DNA of 64,000 bases, taken from contig OY969416.1 in NCBI GenBank assembly GCA_963699145.1, forward strand, positions 453,293-517,292. The letters run 5' to 3'. This stretch comes from an uncultured Verrucomicrobiae bacterium (GTDB lineage Bacteria; Verrucomicrobiota; Verrucomicrobiia; Limisphaerales; DASXHY01). Positions 30,909-61,546 of the stretch are shown here, one piece after another. Numbering within the stretch: position 1 is the first letter of the stretch; every line of letters starts with the position of its first letter. The translations under genes were made by a program, and so were the position numbers. Below the pieces are notes generated by a model, which was not told where the DNA came from, searched no databases, and worked only from the letters and a program-made list of their open reading frames with translations.

Positions 30909-30931
30909 TTCAGAATCATCAACATTACGCG

Positions 30932-30967
30932 ACGGGCGGGGAATTTTTCCCCGCCCGTTTTATTTTC
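30932..30967 (+). terminator. Intrinsic terminator
   Basis: acgggcggggaa-ttt-ttccccgcccgt followed by tttatttt. Confidence 0.85.
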
Positions 30968-31007
30968 GACACCTCGCTGGTTCGCGCTTAGATTGCGCCG
31001 ACAGGCG

Positions 31008-33335
31008 ATGTCTGCCACCAGTCTGACAACTGAACTCTCCGTTTCGGGAATGACGTGCGGCAATTGCGCGCGCCACGTCACCGAGGCCATCCAGAGCGTG
31101 CCCGGCGTTCACAGCGCGACGGTCAGCCTGGATTCTCACAGCGCTGCCGTGCGATGGTCGGCGGGCAGTTCGCGCAATCCCACAGCGGTGGTCGCTGCCA
31201 TCGAAAAAGAAGGCTACCGCGCCAAGGTGATTGAGGCTCACGAACCCGATGCCGCACAGCACGCGCTGGCGGGCTGGCACTTTAACCTCGTCATCGCTGT
31301 GCTCGGCACTGCGCCGCTGATGATTGGCGAATGGGTTTTTCAACAGGGCATGAGGCCGTGGTTCCAGTGGTTTTCCTTCGTGCTAGCCACCATCGTGCAG
31401 ATTTTTGCCGGCGCGCAATTTTATCGCGGCGCGTGGAACCAATTAAAAGTCCGCAGCTCGAACATGGACACGCTGGTGGCGCTGGGCTCGACCACCGCTT
31501 ACGCGTTCAGCGTCTGGGCGTTGTTCAGCGGCTTCAAGACGCACCTCTATTTCATGGAAGCCGCGTCGATCATTACGCTGATCAGCGTGGGGCATTGGAT
31601 TGAATCGCGCGTGACCGTGCGTGCCTCTGATGCGCTGAAAAAATTGCTGAACCTTGCGCCGCCAACCGCGCGGCGCGTGGGTGGCAGTGGCACGGGCGTC
31701 TCGCCCGTGAGTTCCGATTCGCACGGGCAGGATGCCCGTGCCACTAATGGCGTCGAAGAACAAGTTCCCGTGGCAGATTTGAAAATCGGCGATCTCATCG
31801 TGCTCCGCCCCGGCGACGCCGTTCCCACGGACGGCAAAGTTATCGAAGGCGCTTCCGCGGTCGATGAAGCCATGCTGACCGGCGAATCCGCGCCGATTGA
31901 TAAAACCACGGGCAGCGATTTGTTTGCCGGCACCGTCAATCTCAACGGCCGGCTCGTCATGCGCGTGACCGCCATGGGCGATGAAACCGCGCTCGCGCAC
32001 ATCATTGCCTCCGTGCAACGCGCCCAGACCAGCCGCGCAAACATCCAGCGGCTCGGAGATCGCGTCAGCAGCGTGTTCGTCCCGATCGTGGCGTGCATCG
32101 CGTTGGCGGCGGGATTGTGGTGGGGACTGAATCCCGCATCCGCCAATCACGCGCATCAGTGGCTTGCGAAATTCCTCTGGCACGCGCACCCGCCGGATCC
32201 AACGGCGGCGGGGTTCATCATCGCGGCGGCGGTTTTGATTATCGCTTGCCCGTGCGCGATGGGTCTTGCCACGCCGGCAGCCATCATGGCCGGGTCGAAT
32301 GCCGCGGCGCGGCGCGGGATTTTGATTCGCGATGGTGTGGCGCTCGAAAAGGCGGGACAAATCACCGCGGTGATTTTTGACAAGACCGGCACGCTGACTT
32401 TTGGCAAGCCGGAGGTTGCGGCCATCGCCGCGCCGAATACTGCCGGTGGCTGGGAGACTGTGCCGCCATCCGGCGCGCCAGTCGCGCTTGCGGCTGCGCT
32501 CGCGCGTCATTCCACTCATCCCATCAGCCAGGCCATTGCAAAATTGTCCGGCGAAAAAATTGAGGTGAATGAGTGGAAAGAACTTCGCGGGGCGGGAGTG
32601 GAAGGAAACATCGAACGCCGAACGCTGAACGCCGAACGCCGAAGTGAAAAATTGCGGCTCGGATCGTTGCGATGGTTGCGCGAGACGGGATTAAGCGTTT
32701 CCGTTGCGGAAAATTTCATCAAGGAATGGTCGGAGCAAGGCGCGACTATTGTCGGCCTGGCGAATGACACGAGTTGGCTCGCCCTGTTTGCCGTAAAAGA
32801 CACCGTCAAGCCCGGCTCGGCGAAAGTCGTCGAACAGCTTTCGCGGCAGGGTTTCAAAACCTATCTGGTTACCGGCGATAACGCGTTGACGGCGGCAGGC
32901 ATCGCGCGGCAAACCGGCATTTTAGCCGAAAATGTTTTTGCGGAAATCCGACCGGAACACAAAGCGGAGTTCGTCAAAAAACTGCAGGCGCAAGGTGAGC
33001 GCGTGGCGTTTGTAGGCGACGGTATCAATGACGCACCCGCGCTGGAGCAGGCGGACCTCGGAATCGCCGTGAGCCGCGCGAGTGATGTCGCGCGCGAGGC
33101 GGCGGACATTATTTTGCTGAAATCGGATATCGAAGCGGTGCCGGAAGCGCTCGGGCTCGCGCGGGCGACGTTGCGGACCATCAAACAGAATTTGTTTTGG
33201 GCCTTCTTCTACAATTGCATCGGGATTCCACTCGCGGCGTTGGGGTTCATGAGCCCGATTTTGTGCGCGGCTGCGATGGGATTCTCGGACCTGATCGTGA
33301 TCGGAAACGCGCTGCGGTTGCGGGGAAGAAAGTAG
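31008..33335 (+). CDS. copA: Cu(I)-type P1B heavy-metal ATPase carrying in-frame repeat-derived insertions
   Basis: GMTCGNC, NMDTLVALG, TGES, ACPCAMGLATP, DKTGT, GDGINDAPAL, FFYN. Confidence 0.92.
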   Translation: MSATSLTTELSVSGMTCGNCARHVTEAIQSVPGVHSATVSLDSHSAAVRWSAGSSRNPTAVVAAIEKEGYRAKVIEAHEPDAAQHALAGWHFNLVIAVLGTAPLMIGEWVFQQGMRPWFQWFSFVLATIVQIFAGAQFYRGAWNQLKVRSSNMDTLVALGSTTAYAFSVWALFSGFKTHLYFMEAASIITLISVGHWIESRVTVRASDALKKLLNLAPPTARRVGGSGTGVSPVSSDSHGQDARATNGVEEQVPVADLKIGDLIVLRPGDAVPTDGKVIEGASAVDEAMLTGESAPIDKTTGSDLFAGTVNLNGRLVMRVTAMGDETALAHIIASVQRAQTSRANIQRLGDRVSSVFVPIVACIALAAGLWWGLNPASANHAHQWLAKFLWHAHPPDPTAAGFIIAAAVLIIACPCAMGLATPAAIMAGSNAAARRGILIRDGVALEKAGQITAVIFDKTGTLTFGKPEVAAIAAPNTAGGWETVPPSGAPVALAAALARHSTHPISQAIAKLSGEKIEVNEWKELRGAGVEGNIERRTLNAERRSEKLRLGSLRWLRETGLSVSVAENFIKEWSEQGATIVGLANDTSWLALFAVKDTVKPGSAKVVEQLSRQGFKTYLVTGDNALTAAGIARQTGILAENVFAEIRPEHKAEFVKKLQAQGERVAFVGDGINDAPALEQADLGIAVSRASDVAREAADIILLKSDIEAVPEALGLARATLRTIKQNLFWAFFYNCIGIPLAALGFMSPILCAAAMGFSDLIVIGNALRLRGRK
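31686..31745. repeat. 60-bp REP-like palindrome inserted in frame in copA
   Basis: Terminal IR agtggcacgggc/gcccgtgccact; right arm matches intergenic 47816-47839 at 23/24 nt. Confidence 0.88.
32607..32643. repeat. Heptamer tandem array inside copA
   Basis: aacatcg aacgccg aacgctg aacgccg aacgccg aa. Confidence 0.8.
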
Positions 33336-40464: not shown

Positions 40465-40597
40465 AAAGCTCCAAATCCCAAGCTCCAAGATCCAGAGAAG
40501 CTCCAAATCTAAAACACCCACCCGGCGGCTTGCTCCGAGCTTTGGTGCTTGGAGCTTGGTGTTTCTCTGGAGCTTGGATGTTGGTGCTTGGAGCTTT
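40465..40597. repeat. Inverted heptamer arrays filling the sufD-sufU spacer
   Basis: aagctcc-type left arm 40465-40518 and ttggagc-type right arm 40541-40597; single-arm copy at 44388-44442. Confidence 0.9.
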
Positions 40598-44004: not shown

Positions 44005-44503
44005 ACCTGACCTAAAACAACAATCCGGATCTTTGCCCCGAAGCGCCCGAAGACATTTGACACCCATGGTATAAACATTGCCCTGGAAGGAGGGCAGAAG
44101 GGACAAATGGAAATGGACACGTCAGCCGAAGCCGGGTGCCTCCGGGCAACCCGAAACTCAGTCCTGCTCCCATCCGAGGTGCCAGCCTATTCCAACCCTT
44201 GCCACCGGGTGCAGCCGGTCCCGCTATCAACCATCAACTCTCAACCATCAACCAATCGCAACTCGCAACTTGTTATGATTCAACGTCCATCGTGCCCGAT
44301 CGTGCCGGATCGTAGTGGCGGAGGAAAGGCACGACCGGCATCCGCAACCCGAGGTCAGTTCCAAACCACACCACCCCCGTCGGTTCATTGGAATTTGGAC
44401 CTTGGAACTTCTCTGGAGCTTGGAGCTTGGGATTTGGAGCTTCGCAACCGAACTTTCAAACGCCTTGCGTTCACTTGAGACTCGGGCACAGTGTATCACC
44501 TTT

Positions 44504-47737: not shown

Positions 47738-47839
47738 AACCGCAAAGAACGCAGAGAACACAAAGAAAATTCCTCTTTGCGATCTCTGCGTTCTTTGCGG
47801 TGAAAAAGTTCATCACACGGGCAAGATGCCCGTGCCACT
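47738..47839. repeat. Palindromic 9-bp-period element (47738-47801) plus REP arm (47816-47839) between convergent genes
   Basis: First part is an inverted near-copy of 3303-3369; second part cacgggcaagatgcccgtgccact matches the copA insertion. Confidence 0.88.
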
Positions 47840-51201: not shown

Positions 51202-51882
51202 TCATACATCCAACCGATACCCCACCCCATGCACCGTCTTGATCCACTTCGGCGCCTCCGGGTCCGCCTCGATTTTTCCCCGCAGGCTGGCGATGTGATT
51301 ATCCACCGTGCGCGTCGTCGGAAACGACGCGTAGCCCCACACCACATCCAGGAAACGCTCGCGCGTGACCGGTTCGCCCGGCGATTCCGCCATCAACCGC
51401 AACATCGCGAATTCTTTCGCCGTCAAATGAATCGCTTTCCTCCCGCGCATTGCCGTCTGCCGCGCGAGATCGATTTCCACATCGCCCAATTTCAGTTTCG
51501 CGAGCGACTTGGCGTGCTTCTGAAACCGGCGCAGCAACGCCCGCACGCGCGCCAGCAATTCCTCCGTGCTGAACGGCTTCACCAGGTAATCATCCGCGCC
51601 CGCGTCCAGCCCGGACACGCGATCTTCGATCTGTCCCTTCGCGGTGAGCATCAGGATCGGCACCGGATTCGCCAGGCGCCGCAATTCCGCGCAGACCTCG
51701 TAGCCATCGAGCTTCGGCATCATCACATCGAGCAGCACGAGATCGGGCTTTTCCTCCAGCGCGCGTTTCAACCCGCTCTCGCCATCCGCGGCCGTGATGG
51801 CGCGATACCCTTCCGTCTCGATAACGTCCTTCAACGCGGTGCGCATCGGCGTTTCGTCTTCGATGATCAAAATTCTCGGCAT
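51202..51882 (-). CDS. OmpR/PhoB-family response regulator
   Basis: ILIIEDE, LLDVMMPKLDG, GADDYLVKPF, TRTVDNHIASLR.KIE, TVHGVGY. Confidence 0.95.
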   Translation of the reverse strand: MPRILIIEDETPMRTALKDVIETEGYRAITAADGESGLKRALEEKPDLVLLDVMMPKLDGYEVCAELRRLANPVPILMLTAKGQIEDRVSGLDAGADDYLVKPFSTEELLARVRALLRRFQKHAKSLAKLKLGDVEIDLARQTAMRGRKAIHLTAKEFAMLRLMAESPGEPVTRERFLDVVWGYASFPTTRTVDNHIASLRGKIEADPEAPKWIKTVHGVGYRLDV

Positions 51883-51924
51883 AGCTTTTAACCGTGGATG
51901 CGCGCAGAGGCACGCAGAGGCAAA

Positions 51925-52003
51925 GGAGCGCGGGCTTTAGCCCGCTTCAGCTCACGCGCGCCTGCTGCACAATTTTGGGCTGAAGCGTGATCAACTCCAC
52001 GCT
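51925..52003. repeat. REP-like element (same family as 59861-59964)
   Basis: ggagcgcgggctttagcccgcttcagc ... gctgaagcg; related ggagcacggcgttcacgccgcttcagc ... gttgaagcg at 59861. Confidence 0.65.
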
Positions 52004-52020
52004 GCCCGTTTCGATTCGTC

Positions 52021-54587
52021 TTATCTGCGTTCATCTGCGTTCATCTGCGGTTTAATAGTCACCGGCAACACAATCGTAAACCGGCTTCCTTCCCCAATGT
52101 TGCTGCGCACGGTGACGTCGCCACCGTGCGCCGCAACGATATGCCTCACAATGCTGAGGCCGATCCCCACCCCCTGCGTCTCCCGGCGCAGCTCAGAGCC
52201 GAGCCGGTAAAATCGCTCAAAAATTTTCTCGTGCTCCGCCGGCGGAATGCCCGGGCCGTGATCCTCCACATAAAGTAGGACAGGCCTCCTGCCTGTCTCT
52301 GAAATTTCTTTTTGAAGCATTGCGTCCGGAGTGCCGCCTTGAATATCAGAGACAGGCGGGACGCCTGTCCTACAGTCCGCATCCAATCCAATCGTCACGG
52401 CCTGTCCCTTGGCGGAATGCTTGATGGCATTATCAATCAGGTTCACCAACGCCTGTTGGATGGCGCGCCCGTCGATTTCCAATTCGATGTTGGATGTTGG
52501 ATGTTGGATGTTCCCGCCTTCGCTGCGCTCCGGCGCGGCAAGCGATGTTTCTAATCTGAGTTGAACCCCTTTCTCCTCCGCGTACGGCTCCATCAACTTC
52601 ACCGTTTCGCGGGTGAGCGCGAGCAAGTCCGTGGGCTCGAATTCATATTGCTTGCGGCCCTGTTCAATCCGCGAAAAATCCAAAACGTTCTCAATGAGCG
52701 ACGACAGCCGCCGGCATTCCTGCACGATGAAGCGGAAATATTCGCTCTGCTTCGCGCCCCCCGCGACCTTGCCGCGCTCCAGGCTCTCCGCCATCAAACG
52801 CACGGAAGCTATCGGCGCGCGCAACTCGTGCGACACACTGGAGACGAAATTGGACTTCTGTTCATTCAATGATTGCTGCCGAATCAAGGAACGGCGCAAA
52901 ATAATCGCCGACGCCAGGCCCGCCAGCAACGCGCCGATGATGAGAGCGGAAAACAAAAATTGCCGGCGCTGCACCGCGCGATAATACGTCTCAGGATCCT
53001 GCAACTGGACGATCAAGCTGATGGGGAGATTCGCAGAATGCAGTTGCTGCATATCACCAGATGCGCGTCCTGCCGCGACGGCAAACGCGTTGTTCAAAGT
53101 CCGCGGTGACCACCCGCCAGACAATAAAAGCATTTTCCCTTCAATCACAACCCTGATGACAAAATCATGATGACGATCCAACTCCTGCCAGCGATTCGAA
53201 AGCTGCTGCAAAAGCCATTCGTACCTAATGATTGCGTAAATCGTTTCGTCAGTCTTTTCCATCGCTCCCGCGGGCCAACCAGCCGGCGGAGTTTGCTTCA
53301 CAGCCAGCCACGATTCCGGCCCTTCGCCCCAAAAAACCTCCGGCCAAGTGTTCGTGCCCATCTGCGCCACCGCTTCACCGTAAAATTGCCTTGCTTCTTC
53401 AGAGCGATCCCAGAGATCGAAAAGCGTGTTGGTCGAGAGCGGCGGTGTCGCCGCGCTTATCAGGGCGGGCGCAATCCGCCGCAACCGCTGAATCGCCTCC
53501 TCGGTAATAGGTGACGCCGGGCCGTTTTGCGCGAGCATGGAAACGACAAATTGCGGATTGCGTCGCCAGTCGTCGGGCAGCGCTTCGGGATTGTCTTTGG
53601 CCAAATCGAGAATTTTCAAAACCGCCAGCGGCATCAATCCGACTCCGGATTCCGAAAGCTCCTCCCCCCCAAAGTGAAGCCGTCAAAAACATCGTTGTAA
53701 GCCGCGATGGCGCCCGGCACATCACCGGATTTTTCCACGGACGCCGCCCGCCGACTCAATGCAATTGGCCGAAAACGGCTGTCGGCAATCCCCTCATAAA
53801 AATCCGCCATCGGCTGAGACCCCGTGTGCCGGCGCCCGCCGAGAAATGCCAGGTAAAGATCCGCCGCCCGCTTCCATTCACCGGCGGCAAAAGCGTTTTC
53901 CGCCTCGTTCCACTGCGACAGTTTGTTTGATTTCAAGTTGCTGAAATCCCTCGCCGTCAGCGGAGCCGGTTGCGGCGGCCAGACCCACGGTCGCGGTTGA
54001 ACCAGGTCACGGTTGCGATTCACCGCGATGATGTTTTGCCCTTTGGTCACCCCGTAACCGTTGGTTTCGAACCGAACAATTTTCAAATCATCTTCCGCTG
54101 AGGACATGACGGCGGAGGCGATTTCATCGGCGCGAGCCTTGGCCTCCTGCCGTGCCAAACGGCGATCCGAATTCAGCGTCCAAACCGCGAGCACACCCAG
54201 GACCACTAGCGGCGCGAGCACGACGACGAGCGGCCAGAGAAGTCGGGGAAATTTCAACAGAGCAATCGTCCGGGGTTCTTCAACCGAAACGTTGGAACGC
54301 TGCCGATACAGCTCGCGGCAAGTGAATGCCACCGCCAACGCAATGCTGGCAAGCGACAAGATTTGCATCCAACCGAAGTGACCAGATCGCGAATGGAGAG
54401 AGGTGAAAACAACAGCTAGAGCGGTGATCGGCAACCAAATTACAGTGAAAATTTGGATGCGGTATTTAAACCGCAGCGGTCTCCTGCTCCGCATCATGCC
54501 CACCCGCGCCAGCATTGCTACCAGAAGGATGGCCACAAAAAGCATTGCCACCAAAACGAGCCCCGCCAAGTGTGAGTTCAAACTCAT
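52021..54587 (-). pseudogene. Membrane sensor histidine kinase split at a G7 run (53664-53670) into ORFs 53634..54587 and 52021..53637; kinase half carries in-frame repeat insertions
   Basis: N-half has TM helices and a periplasmic region; C-half has a TM, H-box FVSSVSHELRAP, N-box NLIDNAIKHS, VEDHGPGI, GVGIGLSIV; one extra G joins the frames as FTLGGEELSESGVGLMPLA. Confidence 0.8.
52275..52373. repeat. 99-bp REP-like palindrome in frame inside the kinase ATPase domain
   Basis: Terminal IR gtaggacaggc/gcctgtcctac; inner IR gcctgtctctga/tcagagacaggc. Confidence 0.88.
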
Positions 54588-54631
54588 CTTCCGGCGCCAG
54601 CTTGGCGTTTGCGTTCCAATTGCACAAGGGC

Positions 54632-54677
54632 ACGCTAATCCGAGCGCGCCTCGCAATTGTCACGGTTTTGCAAAATC
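54632..54677 (-). promoter_or_regulatory. Conserved regulator box plus -10-like hexamer upstream of the kinase gene
   Basis: Minus strand gattttgcaaaaccgtgaca-N20-TAGCGT. Confidence 0.7.
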
Positions 54678-61463: not shown

Positions 61464-61546
61464 AGATAACCGGTTAAATGAGTTAAATCCGCGAAGAGAC
61501 CCATTTAACTCGTTTAACCCATTTAACGGATTTAACCGATTTAACG
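61455..61546. repeat. Inverted nonamer arrays in the fur-sufB spacer
   Basis: ggttaaatgagttaaat / ccatttaac tcgtttaac ccatttaac ggatttaac cgatttaac. Confidence 0.85.

What the first reader, a model, noticed from the sequence alone, without database searches (positions are those of the whole stretch)
52021..52542. Histidine kinase ATPase domain carries four repeat-derived coding segments
Within ~520 bp: a decamer array supplies the C-terminus KPQMNADERR and the TAA stop (52021-52054); a 99-bp palindrome sits in frame between the N and G1 boxes (52275-52373); a heptamer array encodes NIQHPTSNIE (52483-52512); and a REP-like unit encodes LAAPERSEGG (52514-52542). All keep the frame and spare catalytic motifs. 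With copA, this points to lineage-wide peptide accretion from several repeat families, or a local insertion hotspot.
Basis: partly seen in the sequence, partly recalled or inferred. Interest (0 to 1): 0.75.

Follow-up and report, generated by a model that had tools for sequence, protein, structure and literature searches.

The report
Repeat DNA translated inside a kinase
A sensor kinase gene of an uncultured soil Verrucomicrobium carries four pieces of the genome's own dispersed repeat DNA, translated in frame as floppy surface loops and a new tail, a Rickettsia-like case of selfish DNA lengthening proteins.

Summary
All four repeat segments are present at or within one base of the stated coordinates, and each belongs to a dispersed repeat family of this 5.9-Mb genome.

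- **Heptamer array.** It is a canonical 37-nt AACATCN array, the commonest heptamer family here (79 arrays).
- **99-bp palindrome.** It is a doublet of GTAG-headed REP hairpins, REPIN/BIME-like.
- **Decamer array.** It is the terminal inverted repeat of a 169-bp MITE-like element that fills the kinase-regulator spacer. Its unit closes every reading frame within nine codons.

The inserts map to two beta-hairpin turns of the ATP-binding domain and to the C-terminal tail. All three places have low model confidence, and the catalytic boxes are intact. Some orthologues have short loops; others carry the same or different repeat families at the same two loops.

Across the genome, 68 of 445 heptamer arrays lie inside coding sequence. 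All 17 hand-picked hosts had Pfam domains, among them MutS, Mfd, GlnE, RecG, CopA and four aminoacyl-tRNA synthetases.

My reading is tolerated selfish DNA, a new member of a known kind (RPEs, heptamer arrays). This scan noted the same kind earlier in other phyla.

The parts
52021..53637 (-). Histidine kinase, C-terminal reading frame (538 aa): periplasmic/linker part, HisKA (DHp) and HATPase_c (CA) domains
   Evidence: ORF list. Pfam HisKA 7e-18 and HATPase_c 1.5e-27. 4112 homologues at E <= 0.001 among 8000 candidates scored. The best solved relative is HK853, 2c2a/3dge.
53634..54656 (-). N-terminal part of the same kinase (membrane and sensor region), in another frame
   Evidence: 79% identical to residues 1-306 of the 836-aa homologue P0002. 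The closest full-length homologues listed are mostly about 730-840 aa.
53664..53670 (-). Run of 7 G (gene sense) where the frame changes; reading the DNA by eye, an eighth G would give FTLGGEELSESGVGLMPLAV, which matches the homologues
   Evidence: Three-frame translation and the homologue alignment. Probably an assembly indel, because the essential LeuRS gene is also frameshifted in this assembly.
52543..52549 (-). First unit (AACATCG) of the 37-nt heptamer array, cut off from the rest by the nested 30-nt unit
   Evidence: Codon-level comparison with L004, L005 and L036, which carry an uninterrupted array of about 37 nt at this site.
52513..52542 (-). 30-nt dispersed unit CTTGCCGCGCCGGAGCGCAGCGAAGGCGGG (LAAPERSEGG), nested in the heptamer array
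   Evidence: 14 places at up to 3 mismatches over the 21-nt core. Several abut or interrupt tandem arrays (genome 929687, 1390097, 1921407, 4817080). The unit is also at this site in L002 and L009.
52483..52512 (-). Remaining 30 nt of the heptamer array (AACATCC x3, AACATCG, AA), encoding NIQHPTSNIE, residues 376-385
   Evidence: Tandem Repeats Finder. The family has 79 arrays, canonically 37 nt and often in inverted pairs.
52275..52373 (-). REP doublet (REPIN/BIME-like): GTAG-GACAGGCGTCCCGCCTGTC, spacer, GACAGGCAGGAGGCCTGTC-CTAC, translated as residues 422-455 in the beta3-beta4 turn
   Evidence: Inverted repeat and fold. Family members carry GTAG/CTAC ends. The family is in 17 of 41 relatives. 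pLDDT is below 50 at residues 423-444, between strands 413-419 and 453-458.
51887..52055 (-). 169-bp MITE-like element with decamer-array ends and TTAA-type flanks; it fills the kinase-regulator spacer and supplies the last 10 codons and the stop of the kinase
   Evidence: Arms 51887-51918 and 52024-52055, 32 nt, 78% complementary. The canonical module is TTAAC-CGCAGATGAACGCAGATGAACGCAGAT. The script listed 47 arrays of this and sister decamer families, many in inverted pairs 60-110 nt apart. The fold of 51875-52070 has z = -3.07.
52021..52054 (-). Kinase-proximal decamer arm, encoding KPQMNADERR and TAA (residues 529-538)
   Evidence: Reading the tandem unit by hand, all three frames reach TGA within 9 codons; here that codon reads TAA.
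51202..51882 (-). OmpR-type response regulator immediately downstream
   Evidence: Pfam Response_reg 6.5e-33 and Trans_reg_C 1.7e-26. The kinase-then-regulator order is seen in orthologous loci.

Best explanation
The kinase has accumulated in-frame pieces of at least four dispersed, non-coding repeat families of its own genome. The pieces persist because they sit where the protein tolerates extra, disordered residues.

Shown:
- A canonical 37-nt AACATCN heptamer array lies in the beta1-beta2 turn of the ATP-binding domain.
- A 30-nt dispersed unit lies inside that array, after its first heptamer.
- A GTAG-headed REP doublet lies in the beta3-beta4 turn.
- A 169-bp inverted-repeat element with decamer-array ends occupies the spacer before the response-regulator gene. 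Its inner arm replaces the kinase tail.

Inferred:
- The elements arrived by transposition or copying from other genomic copies. A Y1/RAYT-type enzyme is a candidate for the REP doublet; the agent for the arrays is unknown.
- Selection then kept only copies that preserve the frame, contain no stop, are read on the strand that gives a polar peptide, and lie in permissive loops.

Later change happens in frame-preserving steps. One relative (G008) lacks exactly three heptamers, 21 nt. A heptamer array gives the same 7-residue periodic peptide in every frame. The decamer unit carries TGA in every phase, so it ends any incoming frame within nine codons and rewrites the C-terminus.

I expect no role in catalysis. 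The insertions are old: they are shared, decayed or replaced in other species.
For: Family membership.
- AACATCC is the commonest heptamer unit (79 of 448 period-7 arrays) and AACGCAGATG the commonest decamer unit (21 of 140).
- The canonical array forms are shown.
- The GTAG-GACAGGC hairpins are listed.
- The 30-nt unit has 14 places genome-wide.

Nesting. G000 reads AACATCG, then the 30-nt unit, then AACATCC x3, AACATCG, AA. L004, L005 and L036 have the array uninterrupted.

Slippage. L002 keeps the unit but lacks 21 nt of the array.

Empty sites. Loop 1 has its 18-residue form in L007, L011, L037 and in P0019, P0027, P0118. Loop 2 is short in L008, L009, L010, L037, L038 and L044.

Structure. 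pLDDT is below 50 at residues 369-380, 423-444 and 532-538, flanked by confident strands. HK853 aligns with a 14-residue gap at loop 1 and a break at loop 2.

Catalytic residues are invariant.

Selection filter.
- Heptamer arrays are coding-internal in 68 of 445 cases, against 1545 of 3000 random 37-nt windows.
- In-gene AACACGC arrays are read 15:0 on the NTQHATR strand, ACCCTCG 9:2 and AACATCC 3:0.

Generality. All 17 chosen host ORFs have Pfam domains. REP doublets lie in MutS, GlnE and Mfd.

Age.
- P0002 and P0003 share both REP arms. P0004, P0005, P0007 and P0009 keep the 3' arm only.
- The MutS insert region is present in all 9 genus relatives that gave a match (of 11 searched). Its arms are recognisable in 3 to 4 of them.
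Against: - No insertion event was seen directly and no transposition intermediate or cognate enzyme was tied to any family. None of the 10 Y1_Tnp genes lies within 1.5 kb of a GACAGGC hairpin.
- Without a species tree I cannot say whether shared loop contents reflect one old insertion with turnover or repeated insertions.
- Some features hint at more than neutral decay. The REP arms are nearly identical among G000, P0002 and P0003, while by eye at most about 2 of roughly 14 spacer residues match.
- The G008 orthologue has a hairpin at the same place that differs from the G000 stem by four double, pair-preserving changes and is unique in its genome.
- Every orthologue with a tail has some hairpin spanning the kinase stop.
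- The coding classifier is home-made: on 60-codon test windows the 95th percentile of the non-coding (wrong-frame) scores was 8.6, against a cut-off of 10.
- The 17 Pfam-checked hosts were picked by eye, not at random.
- In this assembly the kinase is frameshifted, so a pseudogene cannot be excluded.
Confidence: 0.78

Rival explanations
1. The inserted sequences are kept because they work as nucleic-acid structures. The long hairpin across the kinase stop and the spacer would set mRNA stability, processing or the translation ratio of kinase to regulator. The in-gene REP doublet would be bound by a REP-recognising protein or would pause ribosomes.
For: - The palindrome folds far better than shuffles (z = -7.15) and the spacer element moderately better (z = -3.07, 2 of 200 shuffles as good).
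- Orthologues L003, L005 and L010 have different array sequences but again an inverted pair spanning the stop.
- The REP arms are conserved while the spacer diverges.
- Four pair-preserving double changes appear in the G008 hairpin.
Against: - Several orthologues have no insert in loop 2 and a plain short tail with almost no spacer (L004, L008, L012, L037, L044), so the structures are dispensable.
- No Rfam family matches.
- Hairpin elements gather at gene ends genome-wide whatever the gene.
- Pair-preserving changes can arise from template switching within a palindrome, without selection (general knowledge, not tested).
Confidence: 0.13
2. The two loops are active insertion hot spots. The different repeat families seen in different species are independent, recurrent insertions targeted to these sites or to arrays already there, not descendants of single old events.
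For: - Loop 2 holds a REP doublet in G000, heptamer arrays of the ATCAACC/CCATCCA type in L004, L006, L008 and L036, and an inverted decamer-array pair in L102.
- Loop 1 holds AACATCN, GAAACTN or AAACTCG arrays, with or without the 30-nt unit.
- The 30-nt unit sits inside or beside arrays at four other genomic places.
- The G000 array is 100% perfect although the host genes are only 56-78% identical in protein.
Against: - The array length and position are constant across species, which fits one old event.
- Unit variants (C or G at position 7) also vary within single genomic arrays, so in-place change or conversion could explain the differences.
- No tree was built.
- This is a rival only on history. 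It shares the 'tolerated selfish DNA' mechanism.
Confidence: 0.35
3. The repeats in the gene are assembly or sequencing artefacts of a long-read metagenome assembly.
For: The assembly has indel errors. The kinase and the essential LeuRS gene are frameshifted at short homopolymers. The genome is one contig with 90.3% completeness.
Against: Independent assemblies and metagenome proteins carry the same segments at the same sites: P0002-P0010, L002, L004, L005, L009 and L036.
Confidence: 0.02

Closest known systems
Rickettsia palindromic elements (RPEs; Ogata et al. 2000, as summarised in the MITE review PMC10969869, passages read)
   Same: Short palindromic, non-autonomous repeats inserted in frame into unrelated housekeeping genes and translated. 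They sit where the fold tolerates them. Several families occur in one genome and are shared between related species.
   Different: - No sequence relation was tested or is expected.
- The host is a free-living soil Verrucomicrobium with a 5.9-Mb genome, not a reduced intracellular one.
- The elements here are GTAG-headed REP doublets and tandem arrays, not 100-150-bp RPEs with a conserved peptide.
REP / BIME / REPIN elements and their RAYT transposases (PMC3333891 and PMC3116915, passages read)
   Same: An imperfect palindrome with GTAG 5' of its foot and CTAC on the inverted copy. Two inverted REPs with a spacer fold into one long hairpin. The family is dispersed, shared across relatives and varies strongly in copy number (19 to 113 pattern matches).
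   Different: - REPs are by definition extragenic: in P. fluorescens SBW25 only 14 of 1,067 REP 16-mers overlap genes.
- Here 7 of 15 GACAGGC hairpins, and 4 of 5 doublets, lie inside genes.
- No flanking RAYT was found.
Heptanucleotide tandem repeats of bacteria: TAACTGA arrays of Beggiatoaceae (PMC4679880), GGGAATC and GGGGAYT arrays of Xanthomonas and Nostoc (PMC4692102), cyanobacterial STRR arrays with nested small dispersed repeats (Mazel 1990, Elhai 2008: recalled and named in earlier scan notes, not read)
   Same: Hundreds of short arrays of a few heptamer families, mostly intergenic. Some overlap stop codons or lie inside ORFs (25 ORFs in the Beggiatoa genome; by subtraction from the 68% intergenic reported, about 32% intragenic in Anabaena). 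A very small unit is nested inside an array.
   Different: - Different phylum and different unit sequences.
- Here the arrays have a sharp canonical length (37 nt, 5.3 units) and commonly form inverted pairs.
- The in-gene copies sit in core enzymes with a strong strand bias.
[quoted passage not shown]
   Same: The 169-bp spacer element has terminal inverted repeats and no ORF. Its end module has many copies, its flanks are TTAA-like, and it fuses to the host ORF.
   Different: The terminal repeats are themselves tandem decamer arrays. The interiors differ between copies. No target duplication or parent transposon was shown.

Membership tests
REP / BIME / REPIN | Imperfect palindrome of about 20-40 nt | tested here: met
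   GACAGGC-N5-GCCTGTC hairpins: 17 strict hits, and 36 hits at 31 loci with a looser pattern.
REP / BIME / REPIN | Conserved GTAG 5' of the palindrome foot, CTAC on the inverted copy (definition read in PMC3333891) | tested here: met
   The window copy begins GTAGGACAGGC and ends GCCTGTCCTAC. Most family members listed do the same.
REP / BIME / REPIN | Two inverted REPs with a spacer, forming one long hairpin | tested here: met
   32-nt arms, 35-nt spacer; a single hairpin of -58.3 kcal/mol; five such doublets in the genome.
REP / BIME / REPIN | Extragenic location | tested here: not met
   The window copy is inside the kinase. 7 of 15 hairpins of this family are coding-internal, against 5 of 95 for the main CACGGGC family. 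Pfam confirms MutS, GlnE and Mfd as hosts.
REP / BIME / REPIN | A cognate REP-associated tyrosine transposase flanked by the REPs | tested here: inconclusive
   There are 10 PF01797 matches in the genome. No GACAGGC hairpin position lies near any of them. Only two have a hairpin of the wider GGCR-RGA-YGCC type nearby.
Rickettsia palindromic elements | In-frame insertion into unrelated conserved genes at sites compatible with the fold | tested here: met
Rickettsia palindromic elements | Sequence membership in an RPE family | not tested
   No RPE sequence was at hand. The resemblance is in behaviour only.
Heptanucleotide tandem-repeat (STRR-like) arrays | Many dispersed arrays of tandem 7-nt units of a few families, far above chance | tested here: met
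   448 period-7 arrays against 1 in a Markov-3 simulation. The top units are listed.
Heptanucleotide tandem-repeat (STRR-like) arrays | Cyanobacterial STRR unit sequences | not tested
   No STRR sequence was compared here. The units seen (AACATCC, AACACGC, ACCCTCG and others) differ from the STRR units as I recall them.
MITE | Terminal inverted repeats, small size, no ORF | tested here: met
   51887-52055: 32-nt arms, 78% complementary, 169 bp.
MITE | Target-site duplication and a related autonomous element | tested here: inconclusive
   TTTAA lies at both ends and many copies have TTAAC flanks, but no empty site was compared. No transposon was sought.
Class I histidine kinase (HisKA + HATPase_c) | H, N, G1, F and G2 boxes present | tested here: met
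   Pfam; invariant columns; HK853 alignment.
Class I histidine kinase (HisKA + HATPase_c) | One uninterrupted reading frame | tested here: not met
   The frame changes at a 7-G run, 53664-53670. This is probably an assembly error.

The most novel reading that the evidence does not exclude
The repeats are not passive litter but a self-renewing system of loop evolution. Tandem arrays act as landing pads for very small mobile units, which insert at unit boundaries. In-gene hairpins are kept paired by templated correction or conversion from other copies. Arrays at a given loop are rewritten from one unit family to another. If so, the same protein loops across the Pedosphaerales stay occupied by young-looking repeat DNA for far longer than neutral sequence would last.
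Probability: 0.22. Interest if true: 0.7.

Novelty: new member of a known kind. Interest (0 to 1): 0.48.

Why it matters
The result shows on one gene, and then on a whole genome, that a free-living soil bacterium lengthens conserved proteins with its own intergenic repeat DNA. The affected proteins include DNA-repair enzymes and aminoacyl-tRNA synthetases.

- **Annotation.** Odd low-complexity peptides such as NIQHPTS, NTQHATR, STLDPRP or PQMNADERR are repeat read-through.
- **Alignment and phylogeny.** These loops are not homologous residue by residue.
- **Structure prediction.** The segments are low-confidence inserts.
- **REP biology.** One REP family here survives mainly inside genes.

The kinase family offers a natural series of empty, filled, nested and decayed sites on which mechanisms could be tested.

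Tried and rejected
- **Sequencing runs.** I asked for public runs holding the locus, to check the homopolymer frameshift and array-length polymorphism.
- **Metagenome scan.** It returned mostly distant kinases. Only L036, L037, L038, L044 and L102 were useful. The DNA of the closest homologues (P0002-P0009) was not obtained, so covariation of the REP arms could not be tested on DNA.
- **First coding test.** A pure open-frame test (80 codons open on both sides) called 128 of 448 heptamer arrays internal. Many of those flanks were plainly not protein-like. I replaced it with a dicodon test.
- **Stop-free units.** The idea that stop-free units are much more often internal got only weak support: 53 of 305 against 15 of 132.
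- **RAYT adjacency** for the GACAGGC family: none found.
- **Rfam:** no family matched.
- **G008 hairpin.** The idea that it belongs to another REP family of that genome is rejected, because it is unique there.
- **Literature.** One search returned only V(D)J papers. Elhai 2008 is not held. 'Heptanucleotide repeats' plus 'Verrucomicrobia' gave 0 papers. That is the only search behind my statement that I found no description for this phylum.
- **Frame-breaking insertions** were not counted.
Full report
**The locus.** The window is bases 453293-517292 of a single-contig 5.92-Mb genome with 56.7% G+C. Source names given to homologues point to Pedosphaera-like Verrucomicrobiota.

- On the minus strand, ORF 52021..53637 (538 aa) carries HisKA (residues 260-327) and HATPase_c (389-527).
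- An OmpR-type response regulator follows at 51202..51882.
- The closest full-length homologues listed are mostly about 730-840 aa.
- The upstream ORF 53634..54656 is 79% identical to residues 1-306 of the 836-aa homologue P0002. The gene is therefore split by a frame change at a run of seven G (53664-53670). Reading the DNA by eye, an eighth G would give a sequence that matches the homologues.
- The essential LeuRS gene is likewise frameshifted in this assembly, so I take this for an assembly indel. A pseudogene is not excluded.

- Tandem Repeats Finder finds the decamer (52023-52049, 2.7 copies, 100% matches) and the heptamer (52486-52512, 3.9 copies, 100% matches).
- The repeat finder gives palindrome arms at 52275-52306 and 52342-52373: 32 nt, 91% complementary, 35 nt apart.
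- The palindrome folds as one hairpin of -58.3 kcal/mol, z = -7.15.
- In the whole genome there are 448 period-7 and 144 period-10 arrays. A third-order Markov simulation of the same length gives 1 and 8.

**What each segment is.**

*1. Heptamer array.*
- AACATCC is the commonest heptamer unit of the genome, with 79 arrays.
- Its typical form is 37 nt (5.3 units, with AACATCG, AACAACC and AACACCC variants mixed in). It often occurs as two inverted arrays 20-25 nt apart.
- 37 nt is the modal length of all period-7 arrays, with 46 arrays.

*2. Nested 30-nt unit.* At codon level the kinase reads GA-AACATCG, then the 30-nt unit CTTGCCGCGCCGGAGCGCAGCGAAGGCGGG, then AACATCC x3, AACATCG, AA.
- Orthologues L004, L005 and L036 have the array uninterrupted (about 37 nt).
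- L002 has the 30-nt unit but lacks exactly three heptamers (21 nt).
- L009 has the unit after AAACTCG-type heptamers.
- The unit has 14 places genome-wide at up to 3 mismatches. At four of them it abuts or interrupts tandem arrays.
- One of those copies, followed by a TCGACCC array, is translated in another protein as APKRSEGG-STLDPRPS.

*3. The 99-bp palindrome.* It is two inverted hairpins, GTAG-GACAGGC-N5-GCCTGTC and its complement ending CTAC.
- This is the anatomy of a REP with its GTAG head, paired as a BIME/REPIN. I read the definitions in PMC3333891 and PMC3116915.
- The hairpin belongs to a wider set with the apex GGCR-RGA-YGCC (323 hits). Its main family is GCACGGGC...GCCCGTGC-CACTA.
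- The GTAG-GACAGGC pattern (up to 1 mismatch) occurs in 17 of 41 related genomes. The counts are 113, 86, 72 and 45 matches in G013, G002, G008 and G040, and 19 in this genome. The reversed control pattern gave 0 matches everywhere except G028, where it gave 2.

*4. Decamer array.* It is one arm of a 169-bp element (51887-52055). The other arm (51887-51918) is a diverged inverted array, and both ends carry TTTAA.
- The canonical module is TTAAC-CGCAGATGAACGCAGATGAACGCAGAT (27 nt).
- The script listed 47 arrays of this and sister decamer families, many as inverted pairs 60-110 nt apart.
- Read by hand, the tandem unit reaches TGA within nine codons in all three frames. The kinase uses the longest of these frames, with TAA in place of that TGA.

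**Where the inserts lie in the protein.** An AlphaFold2 model from a 41-sequence alignment (mean pLDDT 79.6) has pLDDT below 50 at four places:
- residues 369-380;
- residues 423-444;
- residues 477-490, which from general knowledge of this fold I take to be the ATP lid;
- residues 532-538.

The inserts occupy residues 366-385, between strand 359-364 and the short strand before the N-box helix; residues 422-455, between strands 413-419 and 453-458; and the tail, 529-538.

The closest solved kinase, HK853 (2c2a, 3dge), aligns with a 14-residue gap opposite ERSEGGNIQHPTSN. Its match breaks across the palindrome. The H, N, G1, F and G2 residues are invariant.

**Orthologues.**

*Loop 1.*
- It has an 18-residue basic form in L007, L011, L037, P0019, P0027 and P0118.
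- It holds AACATCN arrays in G000, L004, L005 and L036, and as NIQHPTSN or NIEHRTPN in P0002-P0010.
- It holds GAAACTN or AAACTCG arrays in L003 and L009.

*Loop 2.*
- It is short in L008, L009, L010, L037, L038 and L044.
- P0002 and P0003 share both REP arms (RTGVPPVSD ... SETGRMPVLL), with an almost wholly different spacer.
- P0004, P0005, P0007 and P0009 keep the 3' arm only.
- L004, L006, L008 and L036 carry ATCAACC/CCATCCA-type heptamers.
- L102 carries an insert of roughly 100 residues that contains an inverted pair of decamer arrays.

*Tails.* They vary likewise. P0004 and P0009 end KPQ(M/I)NTDEHR and L011 ends PRMNMDERG. L003, L005 and L010 have other arrays, with the inverted partner in the spacer. 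L004, L008, L012 and L037 have short tails.

**The rest of the genome.** I trained a dicodon test on 823 ORFs of 600 codons or more. The test required an open frame plus a coding-like score in the 60 codons on each side.

| Set | Inside coding | At gene ends | Other | Total |
|---|---|---|---|---|
| Non-redundant heptamer arrays | 68 | 52 | 325 | 445 |
| Random 37-nt windows | 1545 | 215 | 1240 | 3000 |

I then picked 17 host ORFs by eye, and all 17 have Pfam domains:
- REP doublets lie in MutS (residues 419-452), GlnE (586-615) and Mfd.
- Single REPs lie in a xanthine-dehydrogenase-like protein, UvrD and a TPR protein.
- Heptamer arrays lie in LeuRS, ValRS (two), ArgRS, RecG, Mfd, a Ser/Thr kinase, a DinG-like helicase, AddB, two peptidases, homoserine dehydrogenase and the window's CopA-like ATPase (window 32612-32643).

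Of the five GACAGGC doublets, four are in genes. Of hairpins with at least a 4-bp extended stem, 7 of 15 GACAGGC copies are coding-internal, against 5 of 95 of the main family.

In-gene arrays are read on one strand: AACACGC 15:0 as NTQHATR rather than ACCVLRV, ACCCTCG 9:2, AACATCC 3:0. This is what a filter for polar, loop-compatible peptides would give.

The MutS insert region is present, at similar length, in all 9 genus relatives that gave a match (of 11 searched). Its arms are recognisable in G003, G002 and G006 and decayed in the others. These are old insertions.

**Mechanism.**

Shown:
- family membership;
- nesting;
- empty and filled sites;
- loop location;
- a frame-preserving 21-nt loss;
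- depletion of arrays in coding sequence and the strand bias.

Inferred:
- arrival by copying or transposition;
- survival only of in-frame, stop-free, polar copies in permissive loops.

A heptamer array cycles through all three frames every 21 nt. It therefore yields the same periodic peptide whatever the entry frame, and only its total length must fit.

**Unexplained.**
- The G008 hairpin TTTGGGC-GTCTC-GCCCAAA sits where G000 has GACAGGC-GTCCC-GCCTGTC. The two differ by four double, pair-preserving changes, and the G008 hairpin is unique in its genome.
- The G000 array is perfect although the host proteins have diverged 22-44%.
- A hairpin spans the kinase stop in several species, with different sequences.

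These points keep alive the rival readings: a structural RNA role, recurrent targeting, or templated correction.

**Comparison with what is known.**
- In-frame palindromic repeats in housekeeping genes are the hallmark of Rickettsia RPEs (PMC10969869, passages read).
- Heptamer arrays overlapping stops or lying in ORFs are reported for Beggiatoaceae and Anabaena (PMC4679880 and PMC4692102, passages read).
- Nested very small repeats in cyanobacterial heptamer arrays (Elhai 2008) I know only from recall and from earlier notes of this scan. The paper is not held.
- A search for 'heptanucleotide repeats' with 'Verrucomicrobia' found 0 papers.
- Earlier notes of this scan describe the same kind of thing in CPR bacteria, Omnitrophota and Acidobacteria.

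**Verdict.** The feature is real and well documented, and it is a new member of a known kind. It is of moderate interest, mainly for the REP family that lives largely inside genes and for the nested, recurrently occupied kinase loops.

Noticed in passing
window 53664-53670: A run of 7 G (gene sense) splits the kinase into two frames. The upstream ORF 53634..54656 is the N-terminal 306 residues of the homologues.
   Followed up: yes
L024 about 1600-1650 (G000:C1 near 2122933): The essential leucyl-tRNA synthetase gene is frameshifted in the assembly near a short A run (NPVTNRKYSDLDR* against ...ENIPIWIADYVL in the next frame). This points to indel errors in the genome sequence.
   Followed up: partly
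window 32612-32643: An in-frame CGAACGC heptamer array (IERRTLNAERRS) lies inside the hydrolase domain of a CopA-like P-type ATPase (ORF at window 30909-33335).
   Followed up: partly
window 40466-40596, 44226-44442, 47741-47799, 61499-61546: Further clusters of heptamer, nonamer and decamer arrays, some as inverted pairs (for example CGCAAAGAA x3 facing TCTTTGCGA x3). Not examined.
   Followed up: no
L002 (G008:C168) 1081-1097: At the site of the 5' REP of the kinase palindrome, the G008 orthologue has a hairpin whose stem differs by four pair-preserving double changes. The hairpin is unique in that genome.
   Followed up: partly
L102 (metagenome contig), loop 2 of its kinase: A more distant kinase (44% identity) carries an insert of roughly 100 residues in the same beta3-beta4 turn. 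It includes an inverted pair of CCTTTGTCGC decamer arrays translated as LCRRLCRRLCRK...DKGRDKGRDRD.
   Followed up: no
G000:C1 1346583-1350125 (L031): The Mfd/TRCF gene carries both an 80-nt GACAGGC REP doublet (genome 1347897-1347976) and a heptamer array (residues 547-559, inside the CarD_TRCF_RID match).
   Followed up: partly
G013, G002, G008, G040 (relatives): The GTAG-GACAGGC REP family has 45-113 pattern matches in these genomes, against 19 here and none in 24 of the 41 genomes searched. This is a patchy, expansion-and-decay distribution.
   Followed up: no
G000:C1 1598984-1599172, 2011123-2011306, 1792851-1792999: A few AACATCC-type arrays are expanded to 150-190 nt (21-27 units), unlike the canonical 37 nt.
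   Followed up: no
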